A stretch of DNA of 64,000 nucleotides. Source: Escherichia coli (lineage in GTDB: Bacteria > Pseudomonadota > Gammaproteobacteria > Enterobacterales > Enterobacteriaceae). This document shows positions 43,401 to 46,400 of this stretch, piece after piece; position 1 is the first letter of the stretch, and each line of letters opens with the position of its first letter. The position numbers were made by a program. The stretch lies in assembly GCF_003991155.1 (NCBI RefSeq), contig NZ_CP031293.1; one strand, written 5' to 3'.

Positions 43401-46400
43401 ACAGCCACCATCGTGGCAGCGTCGCTCGGACGGTCCGGGCGCTAACGTTAATCTGAGGACATTATGGCTGACACTCGCCCTGAACGTCGCTTTACGCGTA
43501 TTGATCGTCTCCCGCCCTACGTTTTTAACATTACCGCTGAACTGAAAATGGCTGCGCGTCGGCGCGGCGAAGATATTATCGATTTCAGTATGGGTAACCC
43601 GGACGGTGCGACTCCGCCGCATATCGTCGAAAAATTATGTACGGTGGCCCAGCGCCCGGACACGCATGGTTACTCCACTTCACGCGGCATTCCGCGGTTA
43701 CGTCGCGCCATTTCCCGCTGGTATCAGGATCGCTACGACGTTGAAATCGACCCGGAATCAGAAGCCATCGTCACTATTGGTTCGAAAGAGGGCCTGGCGC
43801 ATCTGATGCTGGCGACGCTGGATCACGGTGACACAGTGCTGGTGCCGAATCCAAGTTACCCCATTCATATTTACGGCGCGGTGATTGCCGGGGCGCAGGT
43901 ACGCTCAGTGCCGCTGGTGGAAGGTGTCGATTTCTTCAACGAACTGGAACGCGCCATTCGCGAAAGTTATCCGAAACCGAAGATGATGATCCTCGGCTTC
44001 CCGTCGAACCCAACCGCGCAATGCGTGGAACTGGAATTCTTTGAGAAGGTTGTGGCGCTGGCGAAACGCTACGATGTGCTGGTGGTCCACGACCTGGCCT
44101 ATGCCGATATCGTCTACGATGGCTGGAAAGCGCCGTCAATCATGCAGGTGCCAGGTGCACGCGATGTGGCGGTCGAGTTCTTTACGCTGTCGAAAAGCTA
44201 CAACATGGCGGGCTGGCGTATCGGCTTTATGGTCGGTAACAAAACGCTGGTCAGCGCGTTGGCACGTATTAAAAGCTATCACGATTACGGCACCTTTACG
44301 CCGTTGCAGGTGGCAGCGATTGCGGCGCTGGAGGGCGATCAACAGTGCGTGCGCGACATTGCTGAACAGTACAAACGCCGCCGTGATGTACTGGTAAAAG
44401 GGTTGCATGAAGCGGGCTGGATGGTCGAAATGCCGAAGGCTTCGATGTATGTCTGGGCGAAAATCCCGGAACCGTATGCTGCCATGGGCTCACTGGAATT
44501 TGCCAAGAAACTGCTTAACGAAGCGAAGGTCTGTGTCTCGCCGGGGATCGGCTTTGGCGACTACGGCGACACGCATGTTCGCTTTGCGCTGATTGAAAAC
44601 CGCGATCGTATTCGCCAGGCGATTCGTGGAATTAAAGCGATGTTCCGTGCCGACGGTTTACTACCCGCCAGCAGCAAACATATTCACGAAAACGCGGAAT
44701 AAACACCATCGCCAGAAATGCAAACAGGAGCCAGATGGCTCCTGTTTTTCATTGCACAGTTTGCTTTTAGATCATCAGGGCAAAAGTACCGGCCCAAACG
44801 ATGACCATAAAAGAAATGCCCATAAAGAAATATTTCACTTTACATCTCTCCGCGTAATTACTGTTACGCCTGAATGACTTCATTACACCTGATACAGTGA
44901 GTTGACACCGGGCAAAACGACCTTAAAAGTCCTGTATTTTACCGTGGGCATCACCCCAGAATTCTGAGCTAAACTGCTCCAGACGGCGCTAATGTACGCC
45001 TAAAACTGAAACGAGACAAGAGGCATTTTCTTATTTACTTTTAGTAACTTACAGGTGTCTCATATCGGCGACAGTTTAATTTCTGACGGTAATAATTAGA
45101 GATTCAGCGAAGGAAAAAACCTTAAGAAAAAAGCCATAAAAACCATGAGGTTATTATGGCTGATTTGAGGAGGGAAAGAGTAAGAGCCGTTTGTTAAATG
45201 TATAGCGACGATTCTCCCACCGGGCGCGTTTTAAAGCGACGGTGGATCCATAGGTACTGCTCCGGTGCGCGCATGATCTCTTTTTCGATAATCTTGTTCA
45301 TATAGGCAGCGGCTTGATTTTCATCTGCCGGGTAGCCTTCCATCTCTGGGGTGATGTACAAACGATATCCGCTGTAATCCGCTTTTCTTACCATCGTTAC
45401 GGTTAACATGGCTGCGCCAGAGAGACGTGAAAGGACATACGTACCATTGGTTGTGGCAACATTTTCCACCGCAAAGAACGGCGCGAAGGAGCTGCCTTTA
45501 CGACCATAATCCTGATCGGGAGCAAACCATACCGCTTCACCTTTCTTCAGTGCACCGACAATGCCGCGCAGATTATTTCTGCCGATCATCGCTTTGTTAG
45601 AGCGCATGCGACCACGGGTCTGCACCCATTCCATCAGCTGATTATTATGTGGACGATAGGTGGCCATCATTGGCTGACAAAGTCCCATCACGCGGCCGCC
45701 CAGTTCCAGCGACATAAAATGGACGCCGACAACCATTACGCCGCGATTTTGCATTTGTGCGCGTTTAAGGTTATCCAGCCCTTCCACATCAAACCATTTA
45801 CGTACGCGACTGTCGGGCCAGAACCATGCCATGCCGGTTTCTACCAGCGCCATGCCGAGTGAACGAAAGTTTTCGGCAATCATCTTCTCGCGTTCTTCCG
45901 CAGAATGCTGCGGGAAGCAAAGTTCCAGGTTTTTACGGGCGATAGATTCACGACGTTTCAGGAATGGTCGCGCCATTGTGCCGATACGCGTGCCGAGAAA
46001 GCAGAGAACAGGATAAGGAAGCTGTACCCAAAGCCAGAGTACACCAAGCCCAAACCACGTGAGCCAGTAGCGAGGATGCAGAAACTCGCGTGAAAATTTG
46101 CATTTTGGAAACATAGTTACCTTCTGTAGATACGAATTGTTGTATCGCAGAAGATTCCATGTCGACAGCGGTACACTCAATTGATTAGGCCATCATGTAC
46201 GACAATGGTTCCTGTAAAGAGTGTAAAGACTAGTCAGGACATAACCACGAGGAGCATGAATGCGGTGGCTCTACTTTATCACTGGCTGACTGCTTTCAGC
46301 TACTGATTATTAATCGTGCAAAGTAAAAAGTTTTCCGCACGCAATAGCGTTGCATTTAACGTGCTGTTTTCATTGATGCTTAGCAAAAATTGCCAGAGGT

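What the first reader, a model, noticed from the sequence alone, without database searches (positions are those of the whole stretch)
44767..44838. Tiny 23-codon membrane ORF in the alaC-lpxP spacer (ypdK)
A minus-strand GTG ORF encoding (M)KYFFMGISFMVIVWAGTFALMI lies just beyond the alaC terminator. It matches my recollection of the K-12 small protein YpdK and is easy to miss because it is far below the ORF-track threshold.
Basis: partly seen in the sequence, partly recalled or inferred. Interest (0 to 1): 0.2.

Follow-up and report, generated by a model that had tools for sequence, protein, structure and literature searches.

The report
ypdK, a known tiny membrane-protein gene
The 23-codon ORF is the known E. 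coli small membrane-protein gene ypdK, correctly placed and under clear purifying selection, so the finding is right but ordinary; the one possibly new item is a conserved, folded, unannotated 5' leader RNA in front of it.

Summary
The observation and the interpretation both hold. Window 44767-44838 (-) is a GTG ORF encoding (M)KYFFMGISFMVIVWAGTFALMI. RefSeq annotates exactly these bases as ypdK (WP_010723117.1), both in a strain identical here and in K-12. The peptide scores 57.5 bits against the NCBIfam YpdK equivalog, whose cutoff is 30.

A 23-codon ORF on its own is not evidence of a gene: 60 ORFs of at least 20 aa lie in the surrounding 3.5 kb. Conservation is the evidence. In 75 of 80 Enterobacterales species the same ORF sits tail-to-tail behind alaC. 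It always has a GTG start, a GGAG Shine-Dalgarno and 23-24 codons. Variation concentrates at third codon positions and pN/pS is 0.28.

ypdK is its own transcription unit, with a conserved sigma70-like promoter, a ~146-nt structured leader and a hairpin terminator shared with alaC. lpxP is a neighbour in only some genera.

Function is unknown. The most likely role, by inference, is a single-pass inner-membrane peptide that modulates a larger membrane protein.

Novelty: already known. The leader RNA, which has covariation support and no Rfam match, is the only new lead.

The parts
44767..44838 (-). ypdK coding sequence: GTG start, 23 codons, TAA stop. It encodes (M)KYFFMGISFMVIVWAGTFALMI.
   Evidence: sequence and translation; RefSeq annotation at the same bases; NCBIfam YpdK, 57.5 bits; conserved in 75 of 80 species, purifying selection.
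44848..44851 (-). Shine-Dalgarno GGAG, 9 nt upstream of the GTG.
   Evidence: A GGAG-type purine-rich motif (GGAG in nearly all loci) is present 6-10 nt upstream of the GTG in the 75 loci.
44839..44986 (-). Inferred 5' leader of the ypdK mRNA (~146 nt). It is structured, unannotated and not in Rfam.
   Evidence: Distance from the conserved -10 element. The K-12 tiling-array transcript begins 148 nt upstream of the ypdK start (PMC3009722 supplementary file 3). Structure and covariation. The covariance model matches once per Enterobacteriaceae locus. RefSeq features under it: none. Rfam: nothing credible.
44964..44982 (-). Leader helix P1, a hairpin close to the 5' end.
   Evidence: Compensatory changes also occur in the equivalent Erwiniaceae hairpin.
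44899..44957 (-). Leader helix P2, a long irregular hairpin.
   Evidence: 93% of cells paired, and several pairs change on both sides. A natural 33-nt deletion in another E. coli removes only the tip and keeps the basal stem.
44852..44869 (-). Leader helix P5, a hairpin that abuts the Shine-Dalgarno sequence (GCGUA...UACGC|GGAG).
   Evidence: GC to AU and CG to UA compensatory changes.
44991..45019 (-). Candidate ypdK promoter: TTGTCT (45019-45014), a 17-nt spacer, TACATT (44996-44991), then the G+C-rich discriminator AGCGCC. An A-rich tract lies just upstream (about 45025-45045).
   Evidence: The block GGCGTACATTAGCGCC is kept with at most 4 mismatches in 65 of 75 loci across three families. 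The position fits the transcript start. The promoter scan's threshold (9 of 12) was not reached, so this rests on conservation and position, not on the scan.
44722..44747 (.). Hairpin between the convergent alaC and ypdK genes, read as a two-way intrinsic terminator. The T-run is strong on the alaC side and weaker (UUUGCAUUUC) on the ypdK side.
   Evidence: -21.5 kcal/mol, z = -3.35. The stem is conserved in the 75-locus alignment.
43464..44702 (+). alaC (alanine transaminase), the one constant neighbour, convergent with ypdK.
45127..45161 (-). lpxP's own intrinsic terminator, which separates lpxP from the ypdK promoter.
   Evidence: -17.7 kcal/mol, z = -5.66, followed by a U-run. The scan missed it because the loop is long.

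Best explanation
This is ypdK, the known 23-residue small membrane-protein gene of E. coli, at exactly the stated coordinates.

Shown here:
- It is a real, selected coding gene present across Enterobacteriaceae, Erwiniaceae and Serratia.
- It always starts with GTG behind a GGAG Shine-Dalgarno and always lies tail-to-tail with alaC.

Inferred from conservation plus one published transcript map:
- It is a monocistronic unit with its own sigma70-like promoter (TTGTCT-17-TACATT).
- It has a ~146-nt leader folded into three helices.
- Its terminator hairpin is shared with alaC.

Inferred mechanism (not shown):
- The peptide is one transmembrane helix. Lys2 would sit on the cytoplasmic side, followed by 20 hydrophobic residues, with the C-terminus at the periplasmic face.
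- Like the characterised bacterial small membrane proteins, it most likely acts by binding and tuning a larger inner-membrane protein rather than as an enzyme.
- Its conserved residues sit in two belts near the two membrane surfaces: M1/K2/Y3, M6/G7, S9 and W15, G17/T18/F19, L21/M22.

I put the identity at about 0.97 and the partner-binding mechanism at about 0.5.
For: - Identity: annotated ypdK, the same accession as in K-12; NCBIfam equivalog, 57.5 bits against 30; NCBI and UniRef names. PMC3009722 lists ypdK among the 18 small membrane proteins of Hemm et al. 2008.
- Coding status: 75 of 80 species; GTG, Shine-Dalgarno and length kept; entropy 0.58/0.19/1.13 by codon position; pN/pS 0.28; 8 invariant residues; negative controls.
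- Within E. coli: the ORF is identical in 4771 of 5423 records, whereas the leader is at least 99% identical in only 873.
- Separate unit: lpxP has its own terminator. lpxP is adjacent in only some genera (20 of 78 ypdK-bearing loci; the immediate upstream gene in 12 of 75). The promoter block is conserved. The K-12 transcript starts 148 nt upstream.
- Membrane helix: mean Kyte-Doolittle hydropathy is 2.15 over residues 4-23.
Against: - No function, partner or localisation could be tested here.
- No Pfam, PHROG or PDB relative exists.
- The conserved residues do not form one helix face (helical moment p = 0.20), so a simple one-sided packing interface is not supported.
- No conserved neighbouring gene points to a partner: the upstream neighbour changes from genus to genus.
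- The promoter does not reach the scan's consensus threshold, and the transcription start is inferred, not mapped at base resolution.
Confidence: 0.9

Rival explanations
1. YpdK is a type I toxin-like peptide. On this reading it is a small hydrophobic membrane-damaging peptide whose translation is kept low by a long folded 5' leader and a weak GUG start, and it is released under stress, as with TisB, DinQ and ShoB.
For: It is a small, fully hydrophobic peptide. It has a ~146-nt structured leader. GTG is used in all 75 species. A K-12 transcript overlapping ypdK rose after UV, with a value of 1.06 (PMC3009722).
Against: The gene is single-copy, syntenic and under strong purifying selection across three families, unlike the patchy, multi-copy distribution usual for type I toxins (my own knowledge). 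No antisense RNA candidate was found: there is no Rfam hit, and the only plus-strand promoter-like site (45068-45096) points away from ypdK. Pairing of the leader's 5' end with the Shine-Dalgarno region is no better than shuffled controls. From memory of Hemm et al. 2008 (not readable here), the tagged protein is made under ordinary growth.
Confidence: 0.07
2. The real product is the longer 38-residue protein that starts at ATG 44883 (MKSFRRNSNYAERCK plus YpdK).
For: One search lists this ATG ORF (44767-44883, 38 aa) in the same frame.
Against: The upstream ATG and the 15-residue extension exist only in Escherichia. In most other loci the frame has no upstream in-frame start codon before a stop, and where one occurs its position varies. 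The GGAG plus GTG pair is kept in all 75 loci. RefSeq and NCBIfam use the 23-residue form.
Confidence: 0.02
3. The ORF is a regulatory leader peptide or upstream ORF whose translation, rather than its product, matters.
For: It is very short and lies behind a long leader.
Against: Nothing lies downstream to regulate: the terminator follows 20 nt after the stop, and the next gene, alaC, is convergent. The amino-acid sequence itself is under selection.
Confidence: 0.02
4. It is a chance ORF, and the conservation reflects an RNA or DNA element such as the alaC terminator region.
For: Twenty-codon ORFs are common here. The other sense frame, +2, is also open in 69 of 69 sequences.
Against: Variation peaks at third codon positions and is lowest at second positions. 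Length and start are fixed over three families. The overlapping antisense ORF carries stops, even in K-12. The covariance-supported helices lie in the leader, not in the ORF.
Confidence: 0.01

Closest known systems
YpdK of E. coli K-12 (WP_010723117.1; NCBIfam NF033437; reported by Hemm et al. 2008, PMID 19121005)
   Same: It has the identical 23-residue sequence, the same GTG start, and the same position between alaC and lpxP.
   Different: Nothing differs in the protein. The surrounding DNA differs from K-12 by about 3%.
Characterised small inner-membrane regulators (AcrZ-AcrB, MgtS-MgtA, MgrB-PhoQ, PmrR-LpxT, KdpF, CydX); the comparison is from my own knowledge of the literature
   Same: They share 50 residues or fewer and a single predicted transmembrane helix with no catalytic features. 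This is the basis for the inferred mode of action.
   Different: There is no sequence similarity and no known partner. ypdK is not encoded in an operon with a membrane complex. Its neighbours vary between genera, and only the cytoplasmic aminotransferase gene alaC is constant.
Type I toxin peptides with long structured leaders (TisB, DinQ, ShoB, Ibs)
   Same: Both are short hydrophobic peptides with a long folded 5' untranslated region, and ypdK shows modest UV induction in one array study.
   Different: No antisense RNA was found. ypdK is single-copy, has stable synteny and is under strong purifying selection over three families.

Membership tests
YpdK (NCBIfam NF033437, equivalog) | Full-length match to the family profile above the curated cutoff. 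| tested here: met
   57.5 bits against a cutoff of 30, residues 1-23 on profile positions 1-23, E = 9.4e-16.
YpdK (NCBIfam NF033437, equivalog) | Same sequence and locus as the K-12 gene (between alaC and lpxP, convergent with alaC). | tested here: met
   the same protein accession is annotated at the same bases in a K-12 derivative; 100% identity and a GTG start.
YpdK (NCBIfam NF033437, equivalog) | The reading frame is conserved and under purifying selection. | tested here: met
   found in 75 of 80 species, 23-24 codons, pN/pS 0.28, most variation at third positions.
YpdK (NCBIfam NF033437, equivalog) | The protein is actually synthesised and located in the membrane. | not testable with these tools
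   Hemm et al. 2008 is not held. PMC3009722 only cites it. Hydropathy of 2.15 over residues 4-23 is a prediction.
Type I toxin-antitoxin toxins | An antisense or nearby small RNA antitoxin. | tested here: not met
   no RNA family match; no promoter-like site antisense to ypdK or its leader. This is a weak test, because no transcriptome data were available.
Type I toxin-antitoxin toxins | Toxicity on over-expression. | not testable with these tools
   This needs an experiment.
Operon-encoded small subunits of membrane complexes (CydX or KdpF type) | Encoded in the operon of the partner complex. | tested here: not met
   ypdK has its own promoter and terminator, and its upstream neighbour varies by genus.
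Any Rfam family (for the 5' leader) | A match at or near the gathering score. | tested here: not met
   the only hit is Plastid-psbJ-2 at 24.3 bits against 65.6, on the ORF and terminator rather than the leader. It is spurious.

The most novel reading that the evidence does not exclude
The ~146-nt ypdK leader (window 44839-44986, minus strand) may be an undescribed cis-regulatory RNA. It has three helices with compensatory base changes across Enterobacteriaceae. The last helix abuts the Shine-Dalgarno sequence, and the start codon is GUG in every species examined. Together these could set or switch translation of the small protein in response to a signal still to be found, such as temperature, a small RNA, a protein or a metabolite.
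Probability: 0.35. Interest if true: 0.4.

Novelty: already known. Interest (0 to 1): 0.1.

Why it matters
ypdK remains one of many E. coli small membrane proteins without a function. The comparative data gathered here may help whoever studies it: an invariant residue set, a universal GTG start, its own conserved promoter, a folded leader, and synteny with alaC but not with lpxP. In particular, these data argue against assuming a functional link to lpxP from the E. coli gene order.

Tried and rejected
- One conserved helix face as a packing interface: the helical moment of conservation at 100 degrees is not significant (p = 0.20). The conserved residues form two belts near the helix ends instead.
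- The leader's 5' end pairing with the Shine-Dalgarno/start region, seen in some single folds and by RNAalifold: duplex energies are no better than shuffled controls (-7.5 against -7.3 kcal/mol, median p 0.48).
- Co-transcription or functional linkage with lpxP: lpxP has its own terminator and is adjacent in only a minority of genera.
- The 38-residue ATG-initiated form, the neighbouring 23-residue ORF at 44883-44954, and the antisense ORF at 44718-44804: none is conserved as a frame.
- Searches too short to run or empty: the search for homologous proteins refuses 23 aa. Pfam, PHROGs and PDB give nothing.
- Papers not held: Hemm 2008 and 2010, the EcoSal small-proteome review and the Annual Review article. 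The ribosome-profiling papers have no supplements held.
- Extending the leader model to Erwiniaceae and Serratia: no match at E of 1 or below. Only the 5' hairpin is supported there.
- A sigma-32 or sigma-E reading of the promoter, judged by eye only: a poor fit, and I make no claim.

Full report
**Observation.** Window 44767-44838, minus strand, reads GTG AAA TAT ... ATC TAA and translates to VKYFFMGISFMVIVWAGTFALMI*. A GGAG lies 9 nt upstream of the GTG (44851-44848). The alaC ORF ends at 44702 on the plus strand, and lpxP occupies 45194-46114 on the minus strand. Between the alaC stop and the ypdK stop is an 11-bp G+C-rich hairpin (44722-47). It is followed by a T-run on the alaC strand (-21.5 kcal/mol, z = -3.35) and by a weaker UUUGCAUUUC on the ypdK strand. 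On its own, though, a 23-codon ORF means little: the mechanical ORF list has 60 ORFs of at least 20 aa in 3.5 kb.

**Identity.** A 651-nt query around the ORF matches 5422 of 5426 complete E. coli genomes, and every listed record annotates alaC, ypdK and lpxP under it. In the 100%-identical strain AR_0013 the ypdK CDS falls on exactly window 44767-44838. It carries protein accession WP_010723117.1, and the K-12 derivative DH1 has the same accession. The peptide matches NCBIfam NF033437 (YpdK, equivalog) over all 23 positions at 57.5 bits, against a cutoff of 30. The exact sequence is named YpdK by NCBI and UniRef. Pfam, PHROGs and PDB hold no relative. PMC3009722 names ypdK as one of the 18 small membrane proteins reported by Hemm et al. 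2008. That paper is not held in the library.

**Is it a real coding gene?** I used AlaC to fetch 80 species-level loci from the genome collection, which is unbiased with respect to ypdK.
- A YpdK-like ORF lies on the opposite strand just past alaC in 75 of them. These span Enterobacteriaceae, Erwiniaceae (Pantoea, Erwinia, Mixta) and Serratia.
- The exceptions are one locus cut by a contig end (L004) and four without a match (L068, L078, L080, L081).
- All 75 start with GTG, have a GGAG-type purine-rich Shine-Dalgarno motif (GGAG in nearly all) 6-10 nt upstream, and are 23 or 24 codons long.
- Across 69 distinct nucleotide versions, mean entropy by codon position is 0.58, 0.19 and 1.13, and pN/pS is 0.28.
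- M1, Y3, M6, G7, S9, G17, T18 and F19 are invariant. K2, W15, L21 and M22 are nearly so.
- Negative controls behave as expected. The neighbouring 23-residue ORF (44883-44954) and the 15-residue N-terminal extension from ATG 44883 occur only in Escherichia. The antisense ORF 44718-44804 carries stops and frame-breaking gaps, even in K-12.
- Within E. coli the ORF is identical in 4771 of 5423 records, while the adjacent leader reaches 99% identity in only 873.

The frame is therefore under selection for its protein product, and GTG 44838 is the start.

**Gene anatomy.**
- lpxP ends with its own strong intrinsic terminator (45161-45127; -17.7 kcal/mol, z = -5.66). The consensus scan missed it.
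- lpxP is adjacent to ypdK only in Escherichia, Citrobacter, Salmonella, Enterobacter and Lelliottia. Elsewhere the upstream neighbour differs from genus to genus. The E. coli gene order therefore says nothing about function.
- About 150 nt upstream of the GTG is a block conserved across all three families: A-rich tract, cTTGTCt, 17 nt, TACATT, AGCGCC (window 45019-44991). I read this as a sigma70-type promoter with a G+C-rich discriminator. It scores 8 of 12, below the scan's threshold, so the call rests on conservation and position.
- A published K-12 tiling-array transcript begins 148 nt upstream of the ypdK start and was 1.06 up after UV (PMC3009722 supplementary file 3). This agrees with a start near window 44984.

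**The leader.** Independent folds of 24 Enterobacteriaceae leaders repeatedly give three helices:
- P1, a hairpin close to the 5' end (44982-44964).
- P2, a long hairpin (44957-44899).
- P5, a hairpin whose 3' arm abuts the Shine-Dalgarno sequence (44869-44852).

On the MAFFT alignment, 82.8% of cells pair, against 29-45% when partners are slid. The covariation score is 0.287 against 0.06-0.10, and 53 cells change on both sides against 12-21. These controls have known limits, because the structure was derived from these same sequences. A covariance model finds the element once per Enterobacteriaceae locus, always next to ypdK, and once in the window. It does not reach Erwiniaceae or Serratia, where only the 5' hairpin is supported by compensatory changes. 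One E. coli lineage has lost 33 nt that correspond exactly to the tip of P2, leaving a closed basal stem. Rfam has no match and RefSeq annotates nothing there. Two ideas about how the leader might act did not survive testing: see Tried and rejected.

**How it most likely works.**
- Shown: the gene is conserved, translated-frame-selected, and separately equipped with promoter-like, leader and terminator elements.
- Inferred for the protein: residues 4-23 have mean hydropathy 2.15 and Lys2 is the only charge. This suggests a single transmembrane helix with the N-terminus inside.
- The conserved residues cluster near the two ends of the helix rather than on one face (p = 0.20).
- By analogy with characterised small membrane proteins (my own knowledge), the most likely role is binding and tuning a larger inner-membrane protein. 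I give this about 0.5.
- A toxin-like role is the main rival at about 0.07. It is favoured by the long leader and weak start, and disfavoured by stable single-copy synteny, strong purifying selection and the absence of any antisense RNA signal.
- One weak lead: in Erwiniaceae, ypdK follows an MFS transporter gene and an HlyD-family membrane-fusion gene on the same strand. This recalls AcrZ, but it may be plain family-level synteny.

**Verdict.** The finding is correct and already known. Interest is low. The structured leader is the only element that may be new.

Noticed in passing
window 44839-44986 (-): The ypdK 5' leader is about 146 nt long and folds into three helices with compensatory changes across Enterobacteriaceae. 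It has no Rfam match and no RefSeq feature. It is a possible undescribed cis-regulatory RNA.
   Followed up: yes
window 44991-45045 (-): A promoter-like block (A-tract, TTGTCT, 17 nt, TACATT, G+C-rich discriminator AGCGCC) is conserved across three bacterial families at a nearly fixed distance (141-157 nt) from the GTG. The consensus scan did not detect it.
   Followed up: partly
window 44836-44838 (-); loci L003-L082: The start codon is GTG in all 75 species examined, and never ATG. The next bases (AAATA) are almost invariant as well. Such fixed use of a weaker start codon suggests that expression level or initiation is itself constrained.
   Followed up: partly
window 44840-44845 (-): An out-of-frame ATG sits 7 nt before the GTG in most Enterobacteriaceae. 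In E. coli it is followed at once by TAA (ATG-TAA), while in other genera that frame stays open through the whole ORF (69 of 69 open). It lies only 2 nt from the GGAG, so it is probably not used.
   Followed up: no
window 45127-45161 (-): lpxP has a strong intrinsic terminator (z = -5.66) that the terminator scan missed because of its long, internally paired loop.
   Followed up: yes
L003 about 4440-4470 compared with window 44910-44945: The E. coli strain SCPM-O-B-8794, the species-representative genome in the collection, lacks 33 nt of the leader. The missing stretch is precisely the tip of helix P2, and the basal stem stays intact.
   Followed up: partly
L083 301-363 (E. coli O157:H7 SS17): A 1-nt deletion allele of ypdK is annotated as a 20-residue protein (WP_077766391.1). 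It is either a rare frameshift or a sequencing error.
   Followed up: partly
loci L005-L082, the region upstream of ypdK: The DNA on the promoter side of ypdK is a variable spot, with different genes in different genera. These include lpxP, a class A beta-lactamase gene in Kluyvera (L020 4636-5604, Pfam PF13354), MFS transporters and others. A Stx phage insertion 'between mlaA and ypdK' is reported in one O26 strain (PMC6667211).
   Followed up: partly
L059 4554-7190 (-) and 15 other Erwiniaceae loci: In Erwiniaceae, ypdK lies about 200 nt downstream, on the same strand, of an HlyD-family membrane-fusion gene. In L059 that gene is preceded by a 533-residue ORF that looks like an MFS transporter (by eye, not profile-tested). 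This may be a lead to a partner or may be only inherited gene order.
   Followed up: partly
E. coli genome collection: One genome holds three copies of the region and one copy lies on a plasmid record. Four of the 5426 genomes lack the region. None of these was examined.
   Followed up: no
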